Shown here: positions 1 to 39,609 of the stretch, one piece after another | Position numbering within the stretch: the first letter of the stretch is position 1 | How the letters are laid out: every line of letters begins with the position of its first letter | DNA from: Patescibacteria group bacterium | GTDB lineage: Bacteria; Patescibacteriota; WWE3; JAMCXX01 | Assembly (NCBI GenBank): GCA_023474425.1 | Contig: JAMCXX010000004.1 | Span: 1 to 55,185 of the forward strand | Length of the DNA: 55,185 bases | Direction: 5' to 3' | Position numbers and translations under genes: made by a program | The notes under the pieces: model-generated | Databases searched by the model: none | What the model saw: the letters and a program-made list of their open reading frames with translations, nothing else | Told to the model about the DNA's origin: nothing

Positions 1-213
1 CGAGGCAGAACCTTTTTCAATTTCGCCAAGCATTTCATTAAAAATTTCTCGTCCTGGCTCTTTAGCAGTTTTGCTCTCGTAAAATTCCTTTACCACAAAA
101 AGATTATTTTGCTTGGCGAATTCCCGAAGCTCAGTTAATTGAGCCTCAATAGACAAAACTTGGCGTTCCTCATCCTCTGATGATTTTCTACAATAAATAT
201 AATATTTGATCAT
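1..213 (-). CDS. Serine recombinase (resolvase/large serine recombinase family), N-terminal part; runs off the window edge
   Basis: Not in the ORF track. Manual translation from the ATG at 213 gives MIKYYIYCRKSSEDEERQVLSIEAQLTELREFAKQNNLFVVKEFYESKTAKEPGREIFNEMLGEIEKG, which has the YxRxS catalytic motif, the Q..S...Q motif and the S/TAK..GR..F..ML motif. Confidence 0.92.
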   Translation of the reverse strand, partial: MIKYYIYCRKSSEDEERQVLSIEAQLTELREFAKQNNLFVVKEFYESKTAKEPGREIFNEMLGEIEKGSAS

Positions 214-315: not shown

Positions 316-492
316 GGGAACCGCCGAATTTCGGCGGGAATTCTTTTGGCGGAATTCAAAACCCCTTGGAATTTCTTGGCGGAAACCAATGCCGAGGGGC
401 GAAGCCCCGAGGCAATTTCTTCGGCAAATTCGAAATGGTGGTGTTTGTTTGAAAAAGTCAGAACCCATTTTGCGGAAAATCCCAATGAATGA
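316..492 (+). pseudogene. Orphan coding fragment, probably the C-terminal tail of a CPR-type large serine recombinase
   Basis: Reads GNRRISAGILLAEFKTPWNFLAETNAE...KWWCLFEKVRTHFAENPNE* with no convincing start or RBS. It resembles recombinase C-termini as I recall them (inference). Confidence 0.5.
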
Positions 493-641
493 AATGGAAA
501 CAATGCGGACTCGGCGGGGCAAACTATTTTTCTGGGGGAATGGAATTGCCCCGCCTCGGCTTCCTTCCCGCCCGCAGGAGGGGTCTGGGGAGGAATGCGG
601 GCGGGTTTTTGAACCTTTCCTTTTTCGCTTCCAAATTTCGT
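436..641 (+). repeat. 206-bp inverted repeat, left copy
   Basis: TGGTGGTGTTTG...CCAAATTTCGT is the reverse complement of 2828-3033. Shadow-ORF translations across the two copies are identical. Confidence 0.97.
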
Positions 642-2827: not shown

Positions 2828-3033
2828 ACGAAATTTGGAAGCGAAAAAGGAAAGGTTCAAAAACCCGCCCGCATTCCTCCCCAGACCCCTCCTGCGGGCG
2901 GGAAGGAAGCCGAGGCGGGGCAATTCCATTCCCCCAGAAAAATAGTTTGCCCCGCCGAGTCCGCATTGTTTCCATTTCATTCATTGGGATTTTCCGCAAA
3001 ATGGGTTCTGACTTTTTCAAACAAACACCACCA
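2828..3033 (-). repeat. 206-bp inverted repeat, right copy (its covarying terminal hairpin extends to 2805)
   Basis: Reverse complement of 436-641. Its outer end lies 9 bp from the pgk stop codon. Confidence 0.97.
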
Positions 3034-8820: not shown

Positions 8821-10395
8821 TTACTTGAGGAGGTCTTTAAGGACGGAAGCGGCTAACTGCGGTTCGGCCCGGCCGCGCGAGATTTTCATTACCTGACCTA
8901 CCAAAAACTGCAGACTTTCCTTCTTGCCGTTTTGGTACTCCGAAACTGCCCGCTCGTTTTGTTCGACAGCTTCCCGGCAAACCTCGGCCAACTCCTCATG
9001 TTTCAGCGTTTCCTGCTCCTTTTCTTGAACCAGTTTTTGAACCAGATCTTTAGGATTTAAGTTCGCGAAGTCAAGCCTTTTGTTAACCAGGACACCGGAC
9101 AGTTTAGACACGGGATAATCTTTCTGCAGAGCTTCCGCAGCGGCCGTCTCAAAATAAGCGGCCAAGTTTTTATTCTCTACAATTATTACGGCCTCCGTCT
9201 CCTTAATCGACCAGTCTCTAATGTATCTCACAACTTTTGCCTCAGGCAATTCGGGGATTTGAGATTTGAGATTTGAGATTTGAGATTTCGTAAAGTGCAT
9301 TGGGGGAACGTCAGGCTCGGGAAAATAGCGGTAGTCGTGGGCTTCTTCTTTGCTCCTTTGAAGCACCGTCATTTTTTTGGCTTCGTTATACCCCATCGTG
9401 GCCTTATTACCGGCCTTTTTCTGCTCGCGCGTCTTTAGGAATTCTTCGGACTGTCTTTTTATTTCGTATTCCAAAGCCTGCTTAACAAATTTGAAAGAAT
9501 TAATGTTCTTAATTTCAACTAACGGGGTATAAGAAACTTCCTTCCTCTTCCAATAATTCTGCCCTTCGTCCGTCATTCTGGCTTGGGCGCTCAGCACCCC
9601 TTGTCCAGAATCGATGCTGGACCTGCCTGCCGGCAAGGCAGGATCCCCCGGCATGACACCCTCTGAGGTTATCTCACTCCGACTCAACGAAACAGATTCC
9701 GTGACCTTCAAATTAATGGTTGGCTCCAGTCTCATTGACCCCTTTTCCATGTCCGCATCAGAAATACCCAGGTATCTCACAATCAACTGAAGTTTCTTAA
9801 GATAATCAACAACTTCTTCGGTTGACTTAAAGTCCGGTTCGGTCACAATTTCCACCAGCGGCACCCCACTGCGGTTAAAATCCACTAAAGATACGTCTTT
9901 AGGGCCTTGGTAATTGGGTATTTGGTCGGAGTGCAAAAGTTTCCCTGTATCCTCCTCCATATGCACGCGGTTAATTCGAATAGTTTTACCTCTACCCTGC
10001 CCTTCGTCATGCTGGGCGACTCCAGCATCTGCCCCTTTAGATTCTGGAGTCCTTGCCCTGCTCGTCCCTAGAATGACGATTGAGCCATTCACGCAGAATG
10101 GTTTGGCATACTGACTAATCTGGTACCCTTTTGGTAAATCCGGGTAAAAGTAGTTCTTCCTCTCAAAGTACGAATCTTCGTTTACCCGGCAGTTGAGGGC
10201 TAATCCTAACATTATGCACCATTCAACCGCCTTTTTATTGGGCACTGGCAGGGCTCCCGGCAACCCTAAACAGACCGGGCAGGTGTTGGAATTAGGTTCT
10301 CTGCCAAAGTGGTCGGCCGGGCAGCCGCAAAACATTTTGCTTTTTGTTTTTAGTTCCACGTGGACTTCCAGTCCGATAATCGGTTCAAACTGCAT
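8821..10395 (-). CDS. gatB: Asp/Glu-tRNA amidotransferase subunit B, with in-frame repeat insertions
   Basis: IGLEVHVEL, RKNYFYPDLPKGYQISQ, MEEDTGK, DFNRSGVPLVEIV, DYRYFPEPD. Start set at MQFEP. Confidence 0.97.
   Translation of the reverse strand: MQFEPIIGLEVHVELKTKSKMFCGCPADHFGREPNSNTCPVCLGLPGALPVPNKKAVEWCIMLGLALNCRVNEDSYFERKNYFYPDLPKGYQISQYAKPFCVNGSIVILGTSRARTPESKGADAGVAQHDEGQGRGKTIRINRVHMEEDTGKLLHSDQIPNYQGPKDVSLVDFNRSGVPLVEIVTEPDFKSTEEVVDYLKKLQLIVRYLGISDADMEKGSMRLEPTINLKVTESVSLSRSEITSEGVMPGDPALPAGRSSIDSGQGVLSAQARMTDEGQNYWKRKEVSYTPLVEIKNINSFKFVKQALEYEIKRQSEEFLKTREQKKAGNKATMGYNEAKKMTVLQRSKEEAHDYRYFPEPDVPPMHFTKSQISNLKSQIPELPEAKVVRYIRDWSIKETEAVIIVENKNLAAYFETAAAEALQKDYPVSKLSGVLVNKRLDFANLNPKDLVQKLVQEKEQETLKHEELAEVCREAVEQNERAVSEYQNGKKESLQFLVGQVMKISRGRAEPQLAASVLKDLLK
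9254..9288. repeat. Heptamer tandem repeat (GAGATTT)x4 plus one variant copy, inside gatB
   Basis: Read directly from the sequence; encodes KSQISNLKSQIP. Confidence 0.9.
9572..9657. repeat. GTCAT...ATGAC palindromic element in frame in gatB, with a nested CCTGCCTGCCGGCAAGGCAGG palindrome (9622-9642)
   Basis: Terminal inverted repeats and internal stems. It translates as part of the non-GatB peptide VMPGDPALPAGRSSIDSGQGVLSAQARMT. Confidence 0.85.
10004..10079. repeat. TCGTCAT...ATGACGA palindromic element in frame in gatB
   Basis: 7-bp terminal inverted repeat and an internal GACTCCAG/CTGGAGTC stem. Encodes IVILGTSRARTPESKGADAGVAQHDE. Confidence 0.85.
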
Positions 10396-10450: not shown

Positions 10451-11836
10451 ACCATTCGGCCTTTCCTTATGCCACTCAGTTGATTGTTCATAATGGTAAG
10501 CCACCCGCAAAACCAATTCCTCCGAAAGCTTGGGACCTATTAGGTCTAAACCCACCGGCATTCCTTCACTAAAACCACACGGGACGGAAATACCTGCCAG
10601 ACCGGCAATGGAACTCGGCTCCACCAAAACGTCCGCCATTTCCCCAAACATTGACTGCCCCCGGCTTACTCCCACCGGCAACGCTATCGTCGGCGAAACC
10701 GGGCCAGCTATGAGGTCGACTTCGGAAAAAGCCCGGTTAAAATCATTAATAATTAAAGTCCTTACTTTTTCCGCCGTTTTGTAGTAGGCGTCATAGTATC
10801 CGGCCGAAAGGGCGTAAGTTCCTAGCATAATCCGCCTTTTGGCCTCCGGACCAAACGCTTCGCGCCCTTCTCCATACCGTATTCCGTCATATCTGGCCAA
10901 GTTACTGGAAACCTCACTACGTTGAATAATAGTGTAAACGGCAATGGAATATTTGGGATCCAGTAGGGAAATCTCTTTAACCAAGCAACCCAGCGTCTCC
11001 AGTTGCTTTACAGCCTCCATAACCTTTTGGGAAACTCCGTTTTCTACCCCTTCAAAATATTCCTTCGGCACTCCAATTTTTAATCCGCCGACGGAATCAT
11101 TGAGCCGGGCGGTATAATCGGGAACTTCGTCCGGCAAAGACGTGGCGTCATAAACATCGTGGCCGGCTAAAATGCTTAAGAGAAATGCCGCATCCCAAAC
11201 TGTTTTGGTAATCGGGCCGGGGCTGTCGGTGGACGAAGCCATAGCCACAATTCCGTAGCGCGAAACACGCCCGTAACTGGGCTTAAACCCAACCACCCCG
11301 CACCAGCCGGCAGGCTGGCGAATGGAACCGGCCGTTTCCGTGCCCACCGCCGCCAAGCACAAGTCGGCGGCTACGGCCGCCGCCGACCCGCCGGAGGATC
11401 CGCCCGGCAAACGCGTCAAATCCCAGGGATTTAAGGTCGGACCAAAGTCCGATGTTTCCGTGGACGAGCCGTGGGCCCAGGCGTCCATATTAGTTTTCCC
11501 CAACAAAAACGCCCCGGCTCTAATTAGCTTTTCCGCGATCGTGGCGTTGTATTGAGGTTTATAATCCTTCAAAACGCTGGAAGATGCGGTTGTTTTAAAA
11601 TCTTTGGTGAGAATGTTGTCCTTTAGAGCTAGAGGTAAGTCCTTTAATACCGAGTCACTACGCGGTTCAATACTGTTAATTTCGTCTAAGCTTACTGAAC
11701 TTAAATAAGCACGAACTTTAGAATCTCTTTGCGAAATGGCCGCAAGGCAGTCCACCACAACATCTCGGCCGCTAAATTCTCCATTGGTTATTCCTTCCAA
11801 TGCCTCTTTTAGTGTAAGATTATTAAGACCCGTCAT
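10448..11836 (-). CDS. gatA: Asp/Glu-tRNA amidotransferase subunit A
   Basis: Amidase signature GGSSGGSAAAVAA, TETAGSIRQPA and RRIMLGTY.LSAGYYDAYY. Confidence 0.97.
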   Translation of the reverse strand: MTGLNNLTLKEALEGITNGEFSGRDVVVDCLAAISQRDSKVRAYLSSVSLDEINSIEPRSDSVLKDLPLALKDNILTKDFKTTASSSVLKDYKPQYNATIAEKLIRAGAFLLGKTNMDAWAHGSSTETSDFGPTLNPWDLTRLPGGSSGGSAAAVAADLCLAAVGTETAGSIRQPAGWCGVVGFKPSYGRVSRYGIVAMASSTDSPGPITKTVWDAAFLLSILAGHDVYDATSLPDEVPDYTARLNDSVGGLKIGVPKEYFEGVENGVSQKVMEAVKQLETLGCLVKEISLLDPKYSIAVYTIIQRSEVSSNLARYDGIRYGEGREAFGPEAKRRIMLGTYALSAGYYDAYYKTAEKVRTLIINDFNRAFSEVDLIAGPVSPTIALPVGVSRGQSMFGEMADVLVEPSSIAGLAGISVPCGFSEGMPVGLDLIGPKLSEELVLRVAYHYEQSTEWHKERPNG

Positions 11837-12135
11837 CCCAGTATCCTTTTAACCACAAAATATCCGCCATGCGTATTCTTGCAATTAGAAAGCGCCTCTT
11901 TTTGAGGAAGTATTCTTTTTGAATCAATCACATCCTCCCTAAAAATATCTCTTAACCCCGAAATCTGACTCGTTTCGCTCAAGTTTTTTATTTTTAAATT
12001 AAGCTTTGACAAAATATTAATATGGGAAATTGTGTCGGAAAGTTCCACGGCAAGTTTCCCTGTCTCTTCATCCGACAAAGGGAGTTTTGCCAAATCGGCG
12101 ATGTGTTTTACTTCTTCTTTGGAAATTTCAGTCAT
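11833..12135 (-). CDS. gatC: Asp/Glu-tRNA amidotransferase subunit C
   Basis: ISKEEVKHIADLAKL...FREDV...GYFVV; lies directly upstream of gatA. Confidence 0.92.
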   Translation of the reverse strand: MTEISKEEVKHIADLAKLPLSDEETGKLAVELSDTISHINILSKLNLKIKNLSETSQISGLRDIFREDVIDSKRILPQKEALSNCKNTHGGYFVVKRILG

Positions 12136-12518
12136 AATCTTATTCCCAAATCCCTAAATCCCTCTTTAAAATTTTCCACAGCTTCGGTTGTTATAAAATG
12201 CGGCGGGTCGTAGTCAATCTCATGAACCAGGCTGTTGCGTACTTTGTGCGCCTGCCATACTCTGTCGTAAACAGGCCGGCTAAAACGATCGGATGCATTC
12301 TTTAGGCGCTCACCCATGGTCTGCCCGTCAACAATTTTAGACAAAGCAAAATCCATGAGCTTATCGCCGCGGCTTACGGCTTCTTTAAGAGAACTGGGTT
12401 TGGCCAGCTTAACCAAAGACTCAATCTGCACCCACTCATCGGTAACTTTCCTTTCGTCCAACGAAGAGAGCTGTCTTCTAGCAATCCGTCCGGGTTTTAA
12501 AAAATCAAAAAATCCCAT
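12132..12518 (-). CDS. Hypothetical protein (HEPN/DUF4145-like, RNxLVH motif)
   Basis: TMGERLK...WQAHKVRNSLVHE; overlaps the gatC start. Confidence 0.7.
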   Translation of the reverse strand: MGFFDFLKPGRIARRQLSSLDERKVTDEWVQIESLVKLAKPSSLKEAVSRGDKLMDFALSKIVDGQTMGERLKNASDRFSRPVYDRVWQAHKVRNSLVHEIDYDPPHFITTEAVENFKEGFRDLGIRL

Positions 12519-12530
12519 GTTTTACTTAAT

Positions 12531-12636
12531 GTTAGGGCGCAGTGTTGGTTTTGCAGCGAGCGTTGAGGGGGAGCCGTCAGTCCGCAGACTGAGGGAGGAC
12601 TCCTTGAGCGAGTCGCAAAACTGACACGAGCCCGAC
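12531..12636. repeat. Intergenic copy of a ~100-bp hairpin element
   Basis: Long imperfect stem-loop whose core is nearly identical to the in-frame element in dinB (37979-38081). Confidence 0.9.
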
Positions 12637-12637
12637 T

Positions 12638-13540
12638 TTACATTGATCTAAGTATCTTTATTCTCTCCTCCAGCGGCGGGTGAGTGTCAAAAAGCCCGGC
12701 AAACCATCCGCTCAAATTCTTGCCCTTAAAGGGATTAACAATGTAGAGGTGGGCCGTGGCTTTGTTGGCCACGGAAAGCGGGCGGCTGTCACCTTTAAGC
12801 TTTTCTAATGCCGAGGCTAAACCTTCGGGAAACCTGGTTACCAAAACCCCGTCGGCGTCGGCCAAAAGCTCCCTTTTGCGGGAAACGGCCAACTGGATTA
12901 GTGTAGCAAAAAGCGGTGAAAGCAGGGCTAAAACCACGGCAATTAAAAAGATGACTGCGCCCGCCTGACCCTCCTCGCGGTCATCGCGCCTTCGACCGCC
13001 CCACCAAAGCGACTGCAGAAACCAATCCGAAAGCAGAGTAATCATACCCGCTAACACCGCCACCAAAGCCATATACCGTACATCGTAATTTTTAATGTGG
13101 GAAAGCTCGTGCGCCGTTACACCCTCAAGTTCAACCCGATCTAGCCTTTCCACAATACCCGAAGTGTAGCAAACCACGGCGTGCTGCGGGTCGCGGCCGG
13201 TAGCAAAGGCATTCATAGCCGGGTCGTTAATCATAAAAACACGGGGCTTGGGCAGACCGGCGCCAATGGCTACCGCCTCCACCAAATTATGTAAAGTGGG
13301 ATTCTCCAGTGGCAAAACCTCCCGCGCGCCCGACACTGCCAGCACAATCTTATCGCTGTAATAAAAGCTTCCCAGCGAGGCCAAAACCGAGAAAACAAAG
13401 GCAAAGATTATTAAACCCTGGCCGTAGCCGAAAACATAACCAAAAACGTAACCCAAAGCGGTAATCAAAAAAATAAAAACTGCTACGAGCAAAATACTTT
13501 TCCGCTTATTTTCGGCAATTTCTCTATAAATTGTTGGCAT
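12638..13540 (-). CDS. htpX: HtpX-family M48 zinc metalloprotease
   Basis: NAFATGR, HELSH, SRKRELLAD, THPPLEERI. Start set at MPTIY. Confidence 0.95.
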   Translation of the reverse strand: MPTIYREIAENKRKSILLVAVFIFLITALGYVFGYVFGYGQGLIIFAFVFSVLASLGSFYYSDKIVLAVSGAREVLPLENPTLHNLVEAVAIGAGLPKPRVFMINDPAMNAFATGRDPQHAVVCYTSGIVERLDRVELEGVTAHELSHIKNYDVRYMALVAVLAGMITLLSDWFLQSLWWGGRRRDDREEGQAGAVIFLIAVVLALLSPLFATLIQLAVSRKRELLADADGVLVTRFPEGLASALEKLKGDSRPLSVANKATAHLYIVNPFKGKNLSGWFAGLFDTHPPLEERIKILRSM

Positions 13541-13598
13541 ACTTAAATTGAATTTCCACCACGAACACCACCCACAAATTATCACGAAACCTGAAGTC

Positions 13599-14311: not shown

Positions 14312-16060
14312 TCACCAGCCTTTCAGATTCAACGCTTCTTTAAGTTTAGCAAACGGCAGGGAGTTTAACACGTCGTTTTTAGTTAGCCAACCGCGCCGTG
14401 CCACGCTGACACCGTATTCCATGAACCCCATGTGGGAAACATGGTGGGCATCGGTATCAATCAAGAATTTTAAACCTAACTCTTTGGCTTCCCTCACCAA
14501 AAGGTCAGGTAAATCAAGCCTTTCGGGCAAAGCGTCTATCTCCAAATACTTCTTATTTCTTAAACAGGCATTAAAGACTGCGCTCCAGTCAGCCTCGACT
14601 CCTTTGCGCTTATCCAGAAGGCGGCCGGTGGGGTGGGCAATAAAAGTAATATAGGGATTTTCGATTGCTTTAATAAGACGGCGGGTAACACTTTCCTTGT
14701 TCTGCTCAAAGCCACTATGAATCGCCCCAATTACGTAGTCAAATTCTTTGAGTAACCCATCCGGATAAGATAGTTCTCCATCGGCCCGAATAAGTAATTC
14801 GATACCATTAAGTACTCTTATATTTTTATTTGAGTAATTTATTTTATCAATAAGATTTTTACGCTTTCTTATCTCGTTTCTAACTACTATCTCACCTCTT
14901 GTCTCGATGCTTAACTGGTGGTCGGTTATACCTACGTATTCGTAACCTTTTTTAACTGCCGCCCTAACCATTTCCTCCGCAGTGTTATTTCCGTCGCTCC
15001 AAACCGTATGCATCTGTAAATCCCCACGGATGTCTTTAAGTTCTACAAGGTCCGGCAAATTATGGCCTGCCGCCGCCTCAATCTCTCCGCCATCCTCCCT
15101 TAATTCCGGTTGTATATAATCCAAACCAATACGGCCGTAAAAACTCTCCTCATCGGCAAATTCCTCTACACGACCCCTCCTCCCTTTTACGCCATATTCG
15201 GAGAGGGATAATCCCTTACTCTTAGCCAATTCCCGTAAATGTATATTATGGCTTTTACTGCCGGTAAAATGCTGCAAAAGCGCCCCAAAGGCTTGCGGCT
15301 TTTGGGTCATTAAATCTACCTGGCGTCCGTTCAAAAGAATAATTCGCCCTTTAACCCCACCCTCGTTAAGTACCTCTACCGCCTCGGGATAGGCGACAAA
15401 ATGCTTAACTACCGCTGCCGGATCGTTGGTGGCCACGGCAATATCTACGTCCCCCACGGTTGAAACGCGGCGCCGTAAAGAACCCAACGGTTCCGCCCGC
15501 AAAACTTTGGGCTCTTTAAGCAAATAGTCAATGAGGCGGCGCGAGAGGTCTAAAGCTTGGGAGAGCAACATTCTGTTTTCGCTTTTGCGCTCTTTCTCAA
15601 GGCCTTTTAAAATGTCTTCTTCGGAAGTTTCGCCAAAACCCTCAAGGCTCCTTATTTTGCCTGATTTTGCCGCTAAATAAAGCTGGTTAACGGCGTCTTT
15701 TTCCTTAAGCTTAAGATCCTTTGCCAACCGCAAGGCCGTCCTGGCGCCGATTCCGGGAATACCCAAAAGAGCAAACATGGCCGGCGGCAAACCTTTTTTA
15801 ACTGCTTCAAAGTGGGATGCCTTACCCTTAAGAAAAAGCTCATTTAAATGGGAAGCGAGGGATTCTCCAATCCCGGCAACTTCTTTAATCCTTCCTTCCT
15901 GCCAGAGGCTGTGAAGGTCTTCGCTCATGTGTTCCACCGAAGCCGCGGCGTTTTGATAGGCGCGGATGCGAAAACGGTCTTCGCCTTTAACTTCGTAGGC
16001 GGCCTCGACTTCTTTGAGAAGCTTAACAATCTGTTCGTTGGAAAATTTACCATTTTCCAT
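14312..16060 (-). CDS. polX: DNA polymerase X / PHP domain protein
   Basis: GSLRR, GDVDI, HFTGSKSHN, PELRED and the PHP motifs HTVWSDG, TDH and DTDAH. Confidence 0.95.
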   Translation of the reverse strand: MENGKFSNEQIVKLLKEVEAAYEVKGEDRFRIRAYQNAAASVEHMSEDLHSLWQEGRIKEVAGIGESLASHLNELFLKGKASHFEAVKKGLPPAMFALLGIPGIGARTALRLAKDLKLKEKDAVNQLYLAAKSGKIRSLEGFGETSEEDILKGLEKERKSENRMLLSQALDLSRRLIDYLLKEPKVLRAEPLGSLRRRVSTVGDVDIAVATNDPAAVVKHFVAYPEAVEVLNEGGVKGRIILLNGRQVDLMTQKPQAFGALLQHFTGSKSHNIHLRELAKSKGLSLSEYGVKGRRGRVEEFADEESFYGRIGLDYIQPELREDGGEIEAAAGHNLPDLVELKDIRGDLQMHTVWSDGNNTAEEMVRAAVKKGYEYVGITDHQLSIETRGEIVVRNEIRKRKNLIDKINYSNKNIRVLNGIELLIRADGELSYPDGLLKEFDYVIGAIHSGFEQNKESVTRRLIKAIENPYITFIAHPTGRLLDKRKGVEADWSAVFNACLRNKKYLEIDALPERLDLPDLLVREAKELGLKFLIDTDAHHVSHMGFMEYGVSVARRGWLTKNDVLNSLPFAKLKEALNLKGW

Positions 16061-16176: not shown

Positions 16177-16253
16177 GGAGCTGTAGCTCAGTCGGTTAGA
16201 GCATTCGCTTGTCAAGCGAAGGGTCGCCGGTTCAAGTCCGGTCAGCTCCGCCA
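16177..16253 (+). tRNA. tRNA-Asp (GTC)
   Basis: GGAGCTG/CAGCTCC acceptor stem, TTCGC-TTGTCAA-GCGAA anticodon arm, GGTTCAAGTCC T arm and encoded CCA. Confidence 0.95.
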
Positions 16254-16350
16254 CCCTACGCTCTGCGAGCTTCGGGCGGTCTACAACCACGCGAGGCGAG
16301 GTAGAGCTAGGAGTTGTCCCTCGAAGCCTTGCGCGAAGTGGGACAACATC
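16254..16350. repeat. GC-rich multi-hairpin element directly after tRNA-Asp
   Basis: Several short stems, including GTTGTCCC...GGGACAAC. Confidence 0.55.
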
Positions 16351-17741: not shown

Positions 17742-17890
17742 AAGTTGTAAAATCAAATCGGCTGTAATGTAATGGCGGAGACCAATTTTAACAGCAGTAA
17801 TAAGCGGGATGTGGGGGTCGAGTAGATACTGTTTGATATACTCGCCCTGGCTAAATAGGTCCGAGCCAATTACGTTATCCGGCTCCATAT
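17742..17890 (-). pseudogene. Orphan gene tail, copy 1 (…GSDLFSQGEYIKQYLLDP…KIGLRHYIT…LILQL)
   Basis: Direct repeat of 19197-19350. The 43-bp core at 17818-17860 differs from 19279-19321 at one base. Confidence 0.65.
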
Positions 17891-19106: not shown

Positions 19107-19350
19107 TTACCACTTTTTGCCGTCTTTTCTATATTTGCCGAAAACTTCAAAAAATAGAAATGGGTTAACTTTCTCCAAGTAGCCTTTAAAAACAGTAAGT
19201 TGTAAAATCAACTCAGACTGATCTGTAATGTAATATCGAAGACCGATTTTAATTTTAGAGATTAGAGATAAATCGGGATCGAGTAGATACTGTTTGATAT
19301 ACTCGTCCTGGCTAAATAGGTTTGAGCTGAGTACCGTCCCAAGCTCTAAT
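19107..19350 (-). pseudogene. Orphan gene tail, copy 2 (…SSNLFSQDEYIKQYLLDP…KIGLRYYIT…LILQL…KKW*)
   Basis: Manual translation gives an open frame of about 80 aa with no ATG, paralogous to 17742-17890. Confidence 0.65.
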
Positions 19351-30646: not shown

Positions 30647-30753
30647 ATCCGCGAATTTAAAATTTGAACTTTGAAATTTTCAATGAATTTTAATTGATTT
30701 AAAGTTTCAAACATTTAAAATTGGGGTTCTGTTATTTCATTTCAAATTGAAAA

Positions 30754-32037
30754 TTACGATTCAGATGATCGAAAACCTTTTAACCCGAAATAAGCCACTA
30801 AAACGAGAATAAGCAACTCCGTGGCGCCGGTCAGCCAAGCACTGGCCATAAAACCGAACTTTGGAATTAAAAGATAATTGGAACAGAAATTAAAAACGGC
30901 CGCGATTAGATAAATAAAGGGAATAATTTTTTGCTGATTTTGAGTAATCATTAAAAAAAGAAAAAGAGCCGAACTAAAAAAAAATGGCAGACCAAAAAGC
31001 AGAACCCTTAGTGCTGTTGGCGCCAAAACAAAACCGCGGCCGCCAATAATTTCGATTATCAGCGGCGAAAAATAAATACCCAGAGCGCCAACCGCAATGG
31101 ACGCGCCAACCATAAAAACCAGTGATGACCAGAAAATCCTACGAAATTTGGGCGCATCAACAGCGTAATTTTTAACCATAAGGGGGTAAACGGCATTCAC
31201 AAAATAGGTGGGGAAAACCAGAATGTTTTCAAAAACCTTATAGGCCAAACCGTAGTTGCCCAAAGCCACATCATTAGTCATCTCAAGGGAGGGAGAAAGT
31301 CTAAGAACCGAAAGCAAAAATTGATCCGATTTGGCCACGACCACTGTTAAAACAATGCCGGCGCCAAGCGGTAATGAAGTCGTGATTATTTTCTTCCAAA
31401 AAGCAAAATCGAAATCCAGAGAAACTTGCCCCGTCACCTGTCCGGCCAAATAAAGAGAAACCGCCGCCACAATGATCGCGCCAAAAGTGTTAGCCGCCAC
31501 AAGAGGCAAAAGGCCAAAACCTTTTTCCACGAGCCACAAAACCAAGGCCAGAAAAGTGAGATTGCCGATAATCGAAGAAACCACTAACTTCTCATAAGAA
31601 AGCGTTGTCTGAAAAATAATGGTGGCGCAGTTATAGACGCTTTGGGAAAAAATGGTCAAGAGCCCAATTAGGATTCCAAAACGGATAACATTGGGATCGG
31701 CCAGCCTAAAGGGAATAAGCGGCACCAGAAAAAAAAGGACCAAAAAAATTACGAGCGCTTCCAAAAGCCGCAGGGTTAAAAGATTGTTAAAATATTTTTG
31801 CGCTTTGGAAAAATCGGCCGATAAATCCCTGGTGGCAATGGCGTTAATCCCAAAATCGGTTAACAGGTAGAAATAGGTGGCAAACCCGGTCATTAAGAAA
31901 AAAGCGCCAAACTCGGCCGCGCCGAAGCGGCGGGCAATAATGGCCGTAGTAATTACCGTGGTGCCGGCAGAAAAAGCTTTGCCCAAAAGCTGGGCGGCGG
32001 TATTGGTAGTAATTTTTCCAACTTCCCGATTTATCAT
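30754..32037 (-). CDS. Polysaccharide flippase (Wzx/MOP family)
   Basis: About 12 TM segments; DFGIN....R, GNYGLAYK, LLIPKFG..ASAW. Confidence 0.9.
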   Translation of the reverse strand: MINREVGKITTNTAAQLLGKAFSAGTTVITTAIIARRFGAAEFGAFFLMTGFATYFYLLTDFGINAIATRDLSADFSKAQKYFNNLLTLRLLEALVIFLVLFFLVPLIPFRLADPNVIRFGILIGLLTIFSQSVYNCATIIFQTTLSYEKLVVSSIIGNLTFLALVLWLVEKGFGLLPLVAANTFGAIIVAAVSLYLAGQVTGQVSLDFDFAFWKKIITTSLPLGAGIVLTVVVAKSDQFLLSVLRLSPSLEMTNDVALGNYGLAYKVFENILVFPTYFVNAVYPLMVKNYAVDAPKFRRIFWSSLVFMVGASIAVGALGIYFSPLIIEIIGGRGFVLAPTALRVLLFGLPFFFSSALFLFLMITQNQQKIIPFIYLIAAVFNFCSNYLLIPKFGFMASAWLTGATELLILVLVAYFGLKGFRSSES

Positions 32038-37375: not shown

Positions 37376-37621
37376 ATGTACGAAGATATTAACGAGCCCA
37401 TAGAAGTTGCCACACATTTCAAGGGTGGTCGGGCAAGTCCTCTTGCCTTCCGCTGGCAGCACCTATTCTTTAAGGTCAGCCGAGTCAACCTTTATCATAA
37501 ATTCCGCATCGGCCGGGATGTTATTCACGCTTACTCGGTTTCCACTGACCAAGGAGGAACGTTCAAGATTTCTTTTGATCCTAATCTGCTCACATGGCGA
37601 CTGAACCAAATTTACAACTGA
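37376..37621 (+). CDS. Small protein (DUF6504-like) upstream of dinB
   Basis: EPIEV...P.AFRW....KV.RV...YSV......F...FD...W.L pattern; overlaps the dinB ORF. Confidence 0.75.
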   Translation: MYEDINEPIEVATHFKGGRASPLAFRWQHLFFKVSRVNLYHKFRIGRDVIHAYSVSTDQGGTFKISFDPNLLTWRLNQIYN

Positions 37622-38928
37622 AGTCCCACGAATTTAATTGTTCCCCTTCAAACGTCATGCACATTGATTTGAATAGCTGCTTTGCTTCAATAGAGCAGCA
37701 GGCCAATCCAACGCTTCGCGGCATTCCTACCGTCGTGGCCGCCTACCCCACCGGCGGTGGCTGTGTGCTGGCGGCCAGCATTGAAGCCAAAAAACTGGGT
37801 ATAAAAACAGGCTGGCGTGTCAGGGACGCACAAAAAGTCTGCCCGCAAGTAGCCGTTCTTATCCCAGACCCGGCCAAATACCGCCACGTCCACAAAGAAA
37901 TGATGAAAATATTCGAAGCCTACTGCGGCAATGTTACCCCCAAAAGCATTGACGAGGCTGTTCTCACATTTGGAAAGCCCGAGCGGAGGGCATGGTTTGC
38001 AGCGAACGTTGAGGGGGAGCCGTCAGTATTCGGTCTGACGGAGGACTCCTTGAGTGAGTCGCAAACTATGCCCGAGCTCGGAAACATAGGAAAACAAATC
38101 AAAAAAGACATTAAGGAAAAAATTGGGGAATGGCTTACTGTTAGCATCGGCATAGGACCAAACAGGTTTATGGCCAAAACGGCCGCCGGACTTCAAAAAC
38201 CCGACGGTCTCGAAGAAATAAACTTTATGAACGTGGATAGAATATTTAGCGGCCTGAAGGTTGAGGACCTTTGTGGCATTAATGTTGCCCTTAAGTCCCG
38301 CCTCAATGCTGCCGGAATTTATTCGGCTTTAGAATTCCTCAACGCTAACCGCTACACGCTAAACGCTGTTTTTCGCTCCATCTCTTCCTACCACTGGTAC
38401 ATGCGTTTAAGAGGGTTCGAAGTTGACAACTGGTCTACGGAGAGAAAAAGCATTGGGCATTCCTATGCTTTGCCCAAAGCCACAAACGACGAAAGAGAGC
38501 TCGGTAAAATACTTTTTAGGCTTTGCGAAAAGGTCGGTCTGCGCTTACGCAATAATAACCTGGAAGCCCAAGGAGTTTACCTTTTCTGCTCCTACAAGGG
38601 TAGAACCTGTTTTCACAAAAGTCATAAACTTCACCAGAAGATATTTACCACCCCGGAAATCTACCAACAGGGTTTGCGGATTTTGAGCGAGAGTCTCAAG
38701 ATGGTTAACTCTATTGGAACCCTCGCCGTCGGGGTTTTTGACCTATCTCAATCCCTATACCAACAACAAACCTTCTTCGAAGACCAAGACAAAAAAAGGC
38801 ACCTAGCCCAAACGCTAGACAAGATTAATAACAAGTACGGTAATTTTTCTGTGTCTTTCGGCACCACTTTTGGCCTGTCCAAGAAAATCCTGGACCGCAT
38901 TGCCTTCGGCGGAATTAGAGATATGTAA
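37594..38928 (+). CDS. dinB: Y-family DNA polymerase IV with an in-frame hairpin insertion
   Basis: HIDLNSCFASIEQ, AASIEAKKLG, SIDEA, SIGIGPNRFMAKTA...KPDG. Confidence 0.94.
   Translation: MATEPNLQLKSHEFNCSPSNVMHIDLNSCFASIEQQANPTLRGIPTVVAAYPTGGGCVLAASIEAKKLGIKTGWRVRDAQKVCPQVAVLIPDPAKYRHVHKEMMKIFEAYCGNVTPKSIDEAVLTFGKPERRAWFAANVEGEPSVFGLTEDSLSESQTMPELGNIGKQIKKDIKEKIGEWLTVSIGIGPNRFMAKTAAGLQKPDGLEEINFMNVDRIFSGLKVEDLCGINVALKSRLNAAGIYSALEFLNANRYTLNAVFRSISSYHWYMRLRGFEVDNWSTERKSIGHSYALPKATNDERELGKILFRLCEKVGLRLRNNNLEAQGVYLFCSYKGRTCFHKSHKLHQKIFTTPEIYQQGLRILSESLKMVNSIGTLAVGVFDLSQSLYQQQTFFEDQDKKRHLAQTLDKINNKYGNFSVSFGTTFGLSKKILDRIAFGGIRDM
37979..38081. repeat. ~100-bp hairpin element inserted in frame in dinB
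   Basis: CCGAGC..GGGCATGGTTTGC...GCAAACTATGCCC..GCTCGG stem; the core is shared with 12531-12636. Confidence 0.9.
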
Positions 38929-38940
38929 AAAATCTTACGG

Positions 38941-39609
38941 CTACTTACCGGCGATAATTAGAGTAACTTCACCCTTAACTTGCCGGCCTTTAAACTTTTC
39001 CAAAACTTCCGACACCGCGCCCCGCACGAAATCTTCGTGAATTTTTGTCAGTTCGCGGGCCACGCAGATTTGCCGGTTCCCTAAAACTTCCAAAATGTCC
39101 TTGAGGGTAAAAAGCAGACGGTGGGGAGATTCATAAACGACAATTGTCCCTTCTTCCAACTTTAACGATTCCAAAAAGTTGCGCCTTTTTCCCGGTTTCT
39201 GCGGCAAAAAACCAACAAAGACAAACCGGTCGGTGGGCAGACCGGAAGCGGCTAAGGCGGCAACGGCGGCCGATGGACCGGGAATAGGAACCACCTTTAC
39301 GCCCTGGGCAATCGCCGCCCTGACTAACGAGTAACCGGGGTCGGAGACCGCCGGCATACCGGCATCGGTAACTAAAGCCACATTGGCCCCGGATAAAATC
39401 TGGCTGACTATTTTAGCCGTCTTCGACAATTCATTATGTTCAAAAAAACTTTCCAGAGGCTTGGAAATTTCGTAATGAGAAAGCAGTTTACCTGTCACCC
39501 GAGTGTCCTCGCAAACCACCAAATCTGATGACTTTAAAACTTTAAGGCCTCTAAAGGTGACATCTTCCAAATTCCCAATCGGCGTGGCTACTAAATATAA
39601 AATTCCCAT
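38941..39609 (-). CDS. rsmI: 16S rRNA C1402 2'-O-methyltransferase
   Basis: LYLVATPIGNLED, EDTR, DAG.P.VSDPG, YESPHR, RELTK.HE. Confidence 0.96.
   Translation of the reverse strand: MGILYLVATPIGNLEDVTFRGLKVLKSSDLVVCEDTRVTGKLLSHYEISKPLESFFEHNELSKTAKIVSQILSGANVALVTDAGMPAVSDPGYSLVRAAIAQGVKVVPIPGPSAAVAALAASGLPTDRFVFVGFLPQKPGKRRNFLESLKLEEGTIVVYESPHRLLFTLKDILEVLGNRQICVARELTKIHEDFVRGAVSEVLEKFKGRQVKGEVTLIIAGK

What the first reader, a model, noticed from the sequence alone, without database searches (positions are those of the whole stretch)
12531..12636. The same ~100-bp hairpin element occurs intergenically and in frame within DinB
Seen: the core TTTGCAGCGA.CGTTGAGGGGGAGCCGTCAGT...CTGA.GGAGGACTCCTTGAG.GAGTCGCAAA occurs here and at 37979-38081. 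The outer stems differ but still pair (GTGTTGG/CTGACAC versus GGGCATGG/CTATGCCC). In DinB it adds roughly 33 aa shortly after the catalytic SIDEA motif, a loop known to vary in Y-family polymerases. This is direct internal evidence that a dispersed structured element entered a gene without breaking its frame.
Basis: seen in the sequence. Interest (0 to 1): 0.72.

Follow-up and report, generated by a model that had tools for sequence, protein, structure and literature searches.

The report
Hairpin DNA repeat translated inside DinB
A roughly 105-base hairpin-forming repeat scattered through this tiny bacterial genome has also landed, in frame, in a floppy loop of the DinB repair polymerase, much like the palindromic repeats known from Rickettsia, and all its copies point the same way relative to DNA replication.

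Summary
Window 12534-12637 (intergenic) and 37980-38083 (in frame in dinB) are two copies of one ~105-nt structured repeat.

- **Copies:** a covariance model finds 6 in this 0.68-Mb genome, 4 in the only other genome of its family, and 8 in metagenome contigs. It finds none in 132 other genomes of the class.
- **Structure:** a conserved core, with two facing CGAG motifs and fixed G-U pairs, sits between an outer stem and an apical stem that vary but stay paired (23 of 36 pairs changed on both sides).
- **In genes:** 7 of 18 copies lie in frame in unrelated genes, in either orientation and in several frames.
- **DinB:** 16 of 18 orthologues have no residues at the insert. Two others carry different hairpin repeats in the same loop. 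AlphaFold2 models the insert as disordered.
- **New here:** copy orientation follows GC skew (the replication strand), not transcription, at 15 of 15 copies with a decisive flank.

My best reading is a selfish palindromic DNA repeat of the RPE/REP kind, handled at the DNA level. No mobilising enzyme or target duplication was found.

The scan has already reported similar in-frame hairpin repeats elsewhere in this genome, so this is a new member of a known kind.

The parts
12534..12637 (+). Copy 1 of the repeat ('family A'), intergenic. It fills the spacer between the htpX stop and the start of the next ORF, and its G-rich strand is antisense to both.
   Evidence: Model R1 scores it 101.7 bits, E = 8.4e-28. 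The fold is -56.3 kcal/mol, z = -5.9.
12556..12573 (+). Copy 1, conserved 5' core (GCGAGCG-TTGAGG...), holding the inner CGAG motif.
   Evidence: Motif positions are. These columns are invariant in 17 copies.
12598..12614 (+). Copy 1, conserved 3' core (...CCTTGAG-CGAGTC), which pairs with the 5' core through fixed U-G and G-U pairs and a facing CGAG/CGAG.
37980..38083 (+). Copy 2 of the repeat, in frame and on the sense strand of dinB. It encodes about residues 129-164.
   Evidence: Model R1 scores it 104.7 bits, E = 1.0e-28. The fold is -63.2 kcal/mol, z = -7.3.
38002..38019 (+). Copy 2, conserved 5' core. Its G-to-A change (GCGAACG) is matched by a C-to-T change in the 3' core, keeping the pair.
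   Evidence: Pair 27/92 is G-C in 11 copies and A-U in 6.
38020..38041 (+). Copy 2, apical variable hairpin (CCGTC...GACGG).
   Evidence: Helix 3 has 7 of 9 pairs with changes on both sides.
38042..38060 (+). Copy 2, conserved 3' core.
37594..38928 (+). dinB (Y-family DNA polymerase IV), the host gene of copy 2. It is intact and lies on the strand with negative GC skew.
   Evidence: Pfam IMS E = 2.2e-34 and IMS_C E = 5.1e-13. D25, D120 and E121 are invariant across 19 sequences. AlphaFold2 mean pLDDT is 81.8, with residues 139-160 below 50.
12638..13585 (-). htpX-like M48 protease gene, whose stop codon abuts copy 1.
   Evidence: Pfam Peptidase_M48 E = 2.7e-29.
12132..12518 (-). 128-aa ORF of no known family. 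Its start lies 15 nt from copy 1.
   Evidence: ORF. No Pfam family at E <= 0.001.

Best explanation
The two stretches are copies of a lineage-restricted, non-coding, ~105-nt palindromic dispersed repeat ('family A'). It behaves as selfish or mobile DNA of the RPE/REP kind.

Shown:
- It is multi-copy and sits at unrelated loci.
- It lands in short operon spacers and, in frame, in permissive loops of proteins, where it is read through as a disordered peptide. DinB is the case in this window.
- The DinB copy arose within this lineage.
- Every copy with a decisive flank has its G-rich, better-folding strand on the strand with negative GC skew.

Inferred:
- The element is inserted, or survives, in a way coupled to replication and single-stranded DNA. 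That would be either a transposition of the kind done by HUH (Y1) enzymes, or selection on which hairpin strand faces the lagging-strand template.
- The conserved asymmetric core (two CGAG/CGAG motifs and fixed G-T/G-U pairs) is the part recognised by whatever acts on it. The stems need only pair.
- The enzyme and the exact ends are unknown.
For: Repeat family:
- 6 hits in the own genome and 4 in G001.
- 8 strong hits in metagenome contigs (54.7-87.9 bits).
- The core also appears with other flanks in contigs of a mine-tailings run and three groundwater runs.

Restricted range:
- 2 of 134 genomes of the class have it, and 2 of 61 relatives.
- A pattern scan of one genome for each of 185,579 species gave 5 stretches. 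Three lie in G001's record. The other two do not score with the model.

Structure:
- 93.3% of cells are paired and 23 of 36 pairs changed on both sides. 0 of 500 shuffles reach this, and slid controls reach at most 46.2% paired.

Not a protein module:
- 7 of 18 copies are in ORFs: DinB, a 653-aa protein (two copies), its orthologue, MnmA, a GT4/GT1 glycosyltransferase and Lgt.
- 4 are sense and 3 antisense, in different frames.

Insertion in DinB:
- 16 of 18 orthologues are empty at the site.
- Against PDB 7yll, 38 residues face 9.
- The insert has pLDDT 40-52 in an otherwise confident model.

Mobility:
- No locus is shared between G000 and G001.
- Two copies in one metagenome (L044, L049) share the outer arms but have different flanks.

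DNA-level handling:
- Flank skew relative to the G-rich strand is negative in 18 of 18 copies, with |z| >= 2.9 in 15 of 18.
- Contig-scale skew agrees for 6 of 6 own copies and persists out to 10-30 kb.
- Orientation relative to flanking genes is mixed.

Precedents:
- RPEs inserted in frame (PMC10969869, passages read).
- REPs inserted in frame in genes, and the orientation bias of IS200/IS605 elements toward the lagging-strand template (PMC6006769 and PMC5027513, passages read).
Against: - No mobilising enzyme is linked to it. Y1_Tnp has 0 hits in G000 (84% complete). G001 has 8, but the 7 I inspected are each flanked by their own short hairpins, which by eye are unrelated to family A, and none shares a contig with a family A copy.
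- RVT_1 was found in 0 of 2 genomes.
- I saw no target-site duplication or conserved target at 18 junctions, and no empty-site allele at nucleotide level.
- The outer ends vary, unlike the ends of classical MITEs.
- At the one orthologous pair (G001 and L046), the flanks are 74% identical but the core is identical and some stem pairs changed on both sides. That hints at constraint after insertion and not junk.
- In the variable stems, G-U/U-G outnumber A-C/C-A by 21 to 8. This suggests the G-rich strand is the one that folds. That strand is not the one on the lagging-strand template, which does not fit a simple IS608-type model.
- No RNA data could be obtained.
Confidence: 0.7

Rival explanations
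1. A functional structured RNA. Each copy would be transcribed from the G-rich strand as a stable hairpin RNA, or act in cis on mRNA stability or processing. The coding copies would be incidental.
For: - The G-rich strand folds much better as RNA: -56.3 against -37.9, and -63.2 against -45.3 kcal/mol.
- Three wobble pairs are fixed or nearly fixed (U-G 17/17, G-U 17/17, G-U 12/17), and covariation is strong.
- G-U exceeds A-C by 21 to 8 in the variable stems.
- The core is identical at an orthologous site whose flanks are 74% identical.
Against: - Orientation relative to flanking or host genes is mixed. It is sense in DinB, the 653-aa protein and C2:10850, and antisense in MnmA, the glycosyltransferase, Lgt and the htpX, ftsA/ftsZ and dnaX/recR spacers.
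- Orientation relative to GC skew is uniform.
- No Rfam family matches at E <= 1.
- Copies sit inside coding sequence of unrelated genes.
- A DNA hairpin shows the same covariation, and with DNA parameters the G-rich strand is also the more stable one in 17 of 17 copies.
- Template-switch correction of quasipalindromes could produce paired changes without RNA selection (recalled, from no call).
Confidence: 0.12
2. A host-beneficial single-stranded-DNA signal tied to replication, such as a strand-specific structure used during fork passage. It would be kept in place by selection and only occasionally duplicated.
For: - Orientation is uniform relative to skew (15 of 15 copies with a decisive flank).
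- The asymmetric core is conserved.
- There are paired changes at an orthologous site.
- Two other hairpin families in the genome are also co-oriented with skew, at 4 of 4 loci each.
- Skew within 1 kb of the six own copies is -0.122, against -0.060 +/- 0.022 for random sets of six.
Against: - Copy number is small and the loci are not shared between the two genera.
- Copies inside genes are hard to explain as a designed signal.
- The element is absent from 132 other genomes of the class.
- The better-folding strand lies on the leading-strand template, which is the less exposed of the two.
Confidence: 0.1
3. An intervening sequence removed from the dinB transcript, so that the protein never contains the peptide.
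For: The hairpin brings its two ends together, and candidate-phyla bacteria are known for excised insertions in rRNA (recalled, from no call).
Against: - All 7 copies in coding sequence are stop-free and keep the frame. Excision would not require that.
- Three of them are antisense to the host gene.
- No ribozyme or intron family matches.
- No known bacterial mechanism religates mRNA at such a hairpin (established knowledge).
Confidence: 0.03
4. A native, ancestral DinB loop, or a shared peptide module that happens to resemble intergenic DNA.
Against: - 16 of 18 orthologues have no residues there.
- The same DNA is intergenic elsewhere and is read in other frames and on the other strand in other genes.
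- The modelled insert is disordered.
Confidence: 0.01

Closest known systems
Rickettsia palindromic elements (RPE; Ogata et al. 2000, as summarised in PMC10969869, passages read)
   Same: - A 100-150-bp palindromic dispersed repeat in a small genome.
- A large share of copies are inserted in frame in unrelated housekeeping genes and read through as extra peptide.
- The insertions appear compatible with the protein fold.
   Different: - The host phylum is unrelated, and no sequence relation was tested.
- Here several frames and both orientations are used, not one conserved peptide.
- The ends vary while the interior core is conserved.
- Orientation is locked to GC skew. I did not see this stated for RPEs in the passages I read.
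REP / REPIN elements with RAYT (TnpA-REP) genes (PMC6006769, passages read)
   Same: - Hairpin repeats in intergenic spacers of operons.
- Several families can coexist in one genome.
- In-frame REP insertions in genes are reported.
- They are thought to be processed as single-stranded DNA by Y1 HUH enzymes.
   Different: - REPs are 20-40 nt with a GTAG or CGTC foot, whereas this element is ~105 nt with an internal conserved core.
- No cognate Y1 gene flanked by it was found: 0 in G000, and G001's Y1 genes carry other hairpins.
IS200/IS605-family elements and their non-autonomous derivatives (PMC5027513, passages read)
   Same: Orientation is tied to the direction of replication, and the nucleic-acid structure is strand-specific and imperfect.
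   Different: - No transposase, no distinct left and right ends and no target tetranucleotide were identified.
- The better-folding strand lies opposite to the lagging-strand template, whereas the active strand of IS608 lies on it.
ERIC / IRU and other transcribed imperfect palindromes of enterobacteria (mentioned in PMC10969869; details recalled)
   Same: An imperfect palindrome of about 100-130 bp in transcribed spacers, found in either orientation relative to genes and occasionally inside genes.
   Different: A different sequence and host. A replication-linked orientation was not checked for ERIC here.

Membership tests
RPE-like translated palindromic repeats (functional kind) | Dispersed palindromic repeat of about 100-150 bp present in several copies | tested here: met
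   6 copies in G000, 4 in G001 and 8 in metagenome contigs. Hairpin folds have z = -5.9 and -7.3.
RPE-like translated palindromic repeats (functional kind) | Copies inserted in frame, without stops, in unrelated protein-coding genes | tested here: met
   7 of 18 copies are in ORFs of DinB, MnmA, a glycosyltransferase, Lgt and a 653-aa protein with its orthologue. Translation itself was not tested.
RPE families of Rickettsia (homology) | Sequence relation to one of the described RPE families | not tested
Rfam gave no match at all.
REP/REPIN-RAYT system | Short (20-40 nt) hairpin with a GTAG or CGTC tetranucleotide at its foot | tested here: not met
   The element is ~105 nt. Its foot is GGC-GAG.../...CGAG-CC and varies between copies.
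REP/REPIN-RAYT system | A cognate Y1 (RAYT) gene flanked by copies of the repeat | tested here: not met
   PF01797 has 0 hits in G000 and 8 in G001. The 7 I inspected are flanked by their own short hairpins, none on a contig with a family A copy. G000 is only 84% complete.
IS200/IS605-type single-strand transposition | Copy orientation biased with respect to the replication strand | tested here: met
   Flank skew has the same sign in 18 of 18 copies and is decisive in 15 of 18. Contig-scale skew agrees for 6 of 6 own copies.
IS200/IS605-type single-strand transposition | Distinct subterminal hairpins at the left and right ends, a fixed target or cleavage tetranucleotide, and a parent element encoding TnpA | tested here: inconclusive
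   I saw no conserved flanking word at 18 junctions and found no parent element. The exact ends are undefined because no empty site was available.
Classical MITE (DDE transposase-dependent) | Conserved terminal inverted repeats and a target-site duplication | tested here: not met
   The outer arms differ between copies while the interior is conserved. No duplication is evident (by eye).
Any curated RNA family (Rfam 15) | Match to a covariance model | tested here: not met
   0 matches at E <= 1 over four loci, both strands.
DinB / DNA polymerase IV (host gene) | IMS and IMS_C domains with the catalytic acidic residues | tested here: met
   PF00817 E = 2.2e-34 and PF11799 E = 5.1e-13. D25, D120 and E121 are invariant in 19 sequences.

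The most novel reading that the evidence does not exclude
Family A, and with it the other ~105-nt hairpin families of this genome, would be a new class of replication-coupled single-stranded-DNA element.

- It would be recognised through an asymmetric core of tandem G-A (CGAG/CGAG) and G-T pairs.
- It would be inserted or kept only with one strand on one replication template.
- It would be held under structural constraint even inside coding sequence.
- It would be moved either by an enzyme that is not a recognisable Y1 transposase or reverse transcriptase, or it would serve the host at the replication fork.
Probability: 0.15. Interest if true: 0.75.

Novelty: new member of a known kind. Interest (0 to 1): 0.45.

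Why it matters
- **Protein evolution.** Even a 0.7-Mb genome of a candidate-phyla-type bacterium carries active-looking palindromic repeats that remodel the loops of housekeeping and repair proteins. The same DinB loop holds three different hairpin repeats in three lineages, so permissive protein sites can be mapped from such insertions.
- **A handle on mechanism.** The strict link between copy orientation and GC skew gives a concrete way to ask how these orphan repeats move or are tolerated. For RPE-type elements that question is still open.
- **Annotation.** Extra peptides of this kind in metagenome-assembled genomes should be read as repeat insertions and not as new domains.

Tried and rejected
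- **Rfam.** A scan of four loci at E <= 1 found nothing.
- **RNA runs.** No RNA holder was listed for the dinB stretch, so expression and possible excision could not be examined.
- **Reads laid on dinB.** No joint skipping the element and no empty-site allele appeared. Parts without cover say nothing.
- **Reverse transcriptase.** None was found in G000 or G001.
- **Y1 transposases.** G001's Y1 genes have their own flanking hairpins and show no link to family A.
- **Model R1 on relatives' dinB.** A filters-off search over the dinB loci of G001, G011 and G024 gave only chance-level hits (E >= 1.5). G001's insert is therefore not a diverged family A copy. It proved to be a second family.
- **Empty-site comparison in G000.** tblastn of G001's 653-aa protein, MnmA and the Lgt of L043 against G000 found no orthologues, so no such comparison could be made for those genes there.
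- **Weak hits dropped.** L047 and L051 (19.5 bits) and the two non-family pattern hits L038 and L039 were left out as probable non-members.
- **Group II intron domain V.** I considered this for the GAGCCGU word. I rejected it because the word is not conserved among copies and Rfam does not match.
- **Integron attC.** Considered and rejected. The facing boxes are not reverse complements of the GTTRRRY type (read from the sequence; the consensus is recalled).
- **Literature.** Searches for such repeats in Patescibacteria or Saccharibacteria returned nothing relevant (listings only).

Full report
**1. What is in the sequence**

The two stretches are real. The covariance model places them at window 12534-12637 and 37980-38083. 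They share 89% identity over 70 nt, with E = 2.1e-20 against the whole genome. The core is identical and the outer arms differ.

As RNA, the + strand folds into one long hairpin:
- + strand: -56.3 and -63.2 kcal/mol, z = -5.9 and -7.3, with 0 of 200 shuffles as stable.
- - strand: -37.9 and -45.3 kcal/mol.

Copy 1 fills the spacer between the stop of an htpX-like M48 protease gene (12638) and the start of a 128-aa ORF (12518). Both genes are on the - strand.

Copy 2 lies in frame in a 444-aa DinB ORF, 37594-38928 on the + strand. That ORF matches Pfam IMS and IMS_C. The copy covers about residues 129-164, just after the S-I-D-E-A motif.

**2. It is a repeat family**

The window is part of a 681-kb, 5-contig genome that is 84% complete. 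nhmmer found further copies. I then built model R1 from five full copies.

| Source | Copies |
|---|---|
| Own genome (G000) | 6 |
| G001, the only other genome of the family | 4 |
| Metagenome contigs | 8 strong (54.7-87.9 bits), plus 2 weak hits dropped |

The four own copies outside the window's two are:
- C4:55928-56033, between ftsZ and ftsA.
- C2:10850-10954, after a histidine-kinase-like gene (named by eye, not tested).
- C3:13273-13386, between dnaX and recR.
- C2:265372-265454, a degraded copy (for contexts).

The range is narrow:
- 2 of 61 relatives have it.
- 2 of 134 genomes of the class have it.
- An exact-pattern scan of one genome for each of 185,579 species returned 5 stretches. 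Three lie in G001's record, whose title calls it an uncultured Candidatus Saccharibacteria MAG. The other two do not score with R1.
- Contigs of the mine-tailings run and of three groundwater runs also hold the core with other flanks. Two short groundwater contigs cover the 3' part of the element from 38043 and run into downstream dinB.

**3. Anatomy**

I aligned 17 copies to the model. The alignment is fitted to the model's structure, so it leans toward that structure.

- 93.3% of cells are paired.
- 23 of 36 pairs have changes on both sides, in 121 cells.
- 0 of 500 shuffles reach these values, and slid controls pair at most 46.2%.

The outer stem (about 13 bp) and the apical stem vary freely. 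The core is invariant: GCGAGCG-TTGAGG on the 5' side and CCTTGAG-CGAGTC on the 3' side.

- The core holds fixed U-G and G-U pairs (17 of 17 each).
- One core pair switches between G-C (11 copies) and A-U (6 copies).
- A CGAG word faces a CGAG word twice, once in the core and once at the foot.
- From established knowledge of pyrimidine-GA-purine contexts, I read these as tandem sheared G-A pairs. This is an inference and was not probed.

These features make the fold strand-specific.
- With DNA parameters the G-rich strand is more stable in 17 of 17 copies, mean -22.8 against -19.3 kcal/mol.
- In the variable stems, G-U/U-G outnumber A-C/C-A by 21 to 8. The other cells are 303 Watson-Crick pairs and 28 other mismatches.

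**4. Coding copies**

One search examined 20 hits. I dropped the two weak ones, leaving 18. Seven of these lie in long open frames without a stop.

| Host gene | Source | Orientation |
|---|---|---|
| DinB | G000 | sense |
| 653-aa protein, no Pfam family above cut-off (two copies) | G001 | sense |
| Orthologue of that protein, copy at the second site | L046 | sense |
| MnmA, near the C-terminus | G001 | antisense |
| GT4/GT1 glycosyltransferase | L049 | antisense |
| Lgt | L043 | antisense |

The encoded peptides differ with frame and strand. The unit is therefore DNA or RNA, not a protein module.

**5. DinB**

28 of 41 related genomes had a DinB match. I aligned the 18 orthologues for which a single full frame was in the loci. 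G009 was left out because its match was in pieces.

- 16 of 18 have no residue in the insert columns.
- G001 has about 60 aa there, encoded by a ~170-nt palindrome. R1 does not recognise it. It belongs to a second dispersed family with copies in both genomes.
- G011 has 16 extra residues containing a 9-bp-stem hairpin.

So three lineages carry three different hairpin repeats in the same loop.

The protein looks intact:
- Against PDB 7yll, 38 residues face 9.
- AlphaFold2 on the 19-sequence alignment gives mean pLDDT 81.8. Residues 131-160 score 52, 40 and 41 per block of ten, and residues 139-160 are below 50. The neighbouring strand and helix score about 90.
- D25, D120 and E121 are invariant.

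**6. Orientation rule (new here)**

10-kb GC skew in G000 is negative over all of C4. On C2 it is negative up to about 180 kb and positive beyond. On C3 it is positive.

All six own copies have their G-rich strand on the strand with negative skew. For all 18 copies, the 1-4 kb of flank (element excluded) has negative skew relative to the G-rich strand.

- |z| >= 2.9 in 15 of 18 copies.
- The three indecisive copies are the two in the 653-aa gene and its orthologue, which is a single locus.

The sign persists out to 10-30 kb in G000, where the pooled value is -0.056. It is therefore the chromosome-wide skew and not only a local effect.

Orientation relative to genes is mixed. The replication strand predicts orientation and transcription does not.

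By the usual reading of skew, the G-rich strand of the element lies on the leading-strand template and its complement lies on the lagging-strand template.

Families B and C of the same genome are also co-oriented with local skew, at 4 of 4 loci each.

**7. Mechanism**

My best reading is a selfish palindromic repeat handled at the DNA level in a replication-coupled way. It is tolerated in operon spacers and in disordered protein loops.

Signs of mobility:
- No locus is shared between the two genera.
- L044 and L049 share outer arms at different loci.
- Some copies share apical hairpins while having different outer arms.

What is missing:
- No linked enzyme. Y1_Tnp has 0 hits in G000. G001 has 8, but the 7 I inspected have their own short flanking hairpins.
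- No reverse transcriptase in either genome.
- No target duplication that I could see.

Points that pull toward a function:
- The core is identical, and some stem pairs changed on both sides, at the one orthologous site, whose flanks are 74% identical.
- G-U exceeds A-C on the strand that is not on the lagging-strand template.

Template-switch correction of quasipalindromes could produce paired changes without selection. This is recalled and comes from no call.

**8. Comparison with what is known, and novelty**

In behaviour the element matches Rickettsia palindromic elements and REP-type repeats that insert in frame (PMC10969869 and PMC6006769, passages read). Its orientation bias recalls IS200/IS605 elements (PMC5027513, passages read).

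It fails the defining features of three families:
- REP/RAYT: wrong size and foot, and no cognate Y1 gene.
- Classical MITEs: the ends are not conserved and there is no target duplication.
- Rfam: no family matches.

Searches for such repeats in Patescibacteria or Saccharibacteria gave nothing relevant (listings only).

Earlier notes of this scan describe sister cases in the same genome: family B, family C, and in-frame repeats in gyrB, lspA and LysRS. They also describe a skew-linked orientation for other repeats in other genomes.

I rate this a new member of a known kind. The orientation rule and the triple hit on one DinB loop are the parts worth following up.

Noticed in passing
G000 C4:59466-59574, C4:183064-183189, C4:209984-210098, C2:187012-187124, C2:241551-241626 (all outside the window); G001 dinB, L019 about 1866-2040: A second ~110-nt hairpin repeat family ('B'). 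One copy sits in frame in G001's DinB, in the same loop that holds family A in this genome. Four loci in G000 share one orientation relative to local GC skew.
   Followed up: partly
G000 C2:12388-12495, 14438-14602, 38807-38945, 239201-239303: A third GC-rich hairpin repeat family ('C'). It folds at -59 to -66 kcal/mol and is also co-oriented with skew at 4 of 4 loci.
   Followed up: partly
window 9571-9612 (also C2:219857-219898; related C1:2535-2578, 10499-10604, C2:212200-212244): Small ~42-nt hairpins that start with CGTC (CGTCATTCTGG...CCAGAATC). They look like the CGTC-tagged REP class named in the title of PMC3733652 (listing only). The two near-identical copies have opposite orientation relative to skew.
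   Followed up: no
window 16246-16338 and C2:214422-214513: A 93-nt repeat present in inverted orientation at two loci. It folds at -36 and -39 kcal/mol.
   Followed up: no
window 17742-17866 and 19197-19327: Two copies of a ~125-nt repeat 1.4 kb apart in the window. Context was not examined.
   Followed up: no
window 30654-30755 (with C3:14112-14209, C3:39467-39583, C2:212291-212341): AT-rich repeats built on AATTTGAAA-type words.
   Followed up: no
window 318-641 and 2828-3033, with C5:1199-1322; window 1-32 with the starts or ends of C5 and C3: Repeats shared with other contigs, including at contig ends. These are likely places where the assembly broke.
   Followed up: no
flanks (10-1000 nt) of the six family A copies of G000: GC skew within 1 kb of the copies is about twice the genome background: -0.122 against -0.060 +/- 0.022 for 5000 random sets of six, of which 0.24% were as low. 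This could be a local mutation halo or a preference for high-skew regions. The test was post hoc with n = 6.
   Followed up: partly
G001 C80, C6 (two), C3, C8, C74, C22, C30: Eight Y1_Tnp (IS200/RAYT-like) ORFs of 159-254 aa in a 0.9-Mb genome. Each of the seven inspected is bracketed by its own short inverted repeat upstream and downstream. G000 has none.
   Followed up: partly
G011 dinB, L020 (loop after SVDEAVLDF): A 9-bp-stem, 3-nt-loop perfect hairpin encoded within a 16-aa extra segment of the same DinB loop.
   Followed up: partly
G000 C2:24358-24368, C2:38812-38835, C2:264372-264395, C3:13390-13400: Clusters of two or three CACAGAT words just after stop codons. Two of them lie directly upstream of a family A or family C copy. 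The word itself is under-represented genome-wide (38 sites against about 83 expected).
   Followed up: no
L044 against L049; G001 C5:7923-8024 against C96:1033-1133; L043 against L052: Copies share one module (outer arms or apical hairpin) while differing in the other. This suggests recombination or conversion between copies.
   Followed up: no
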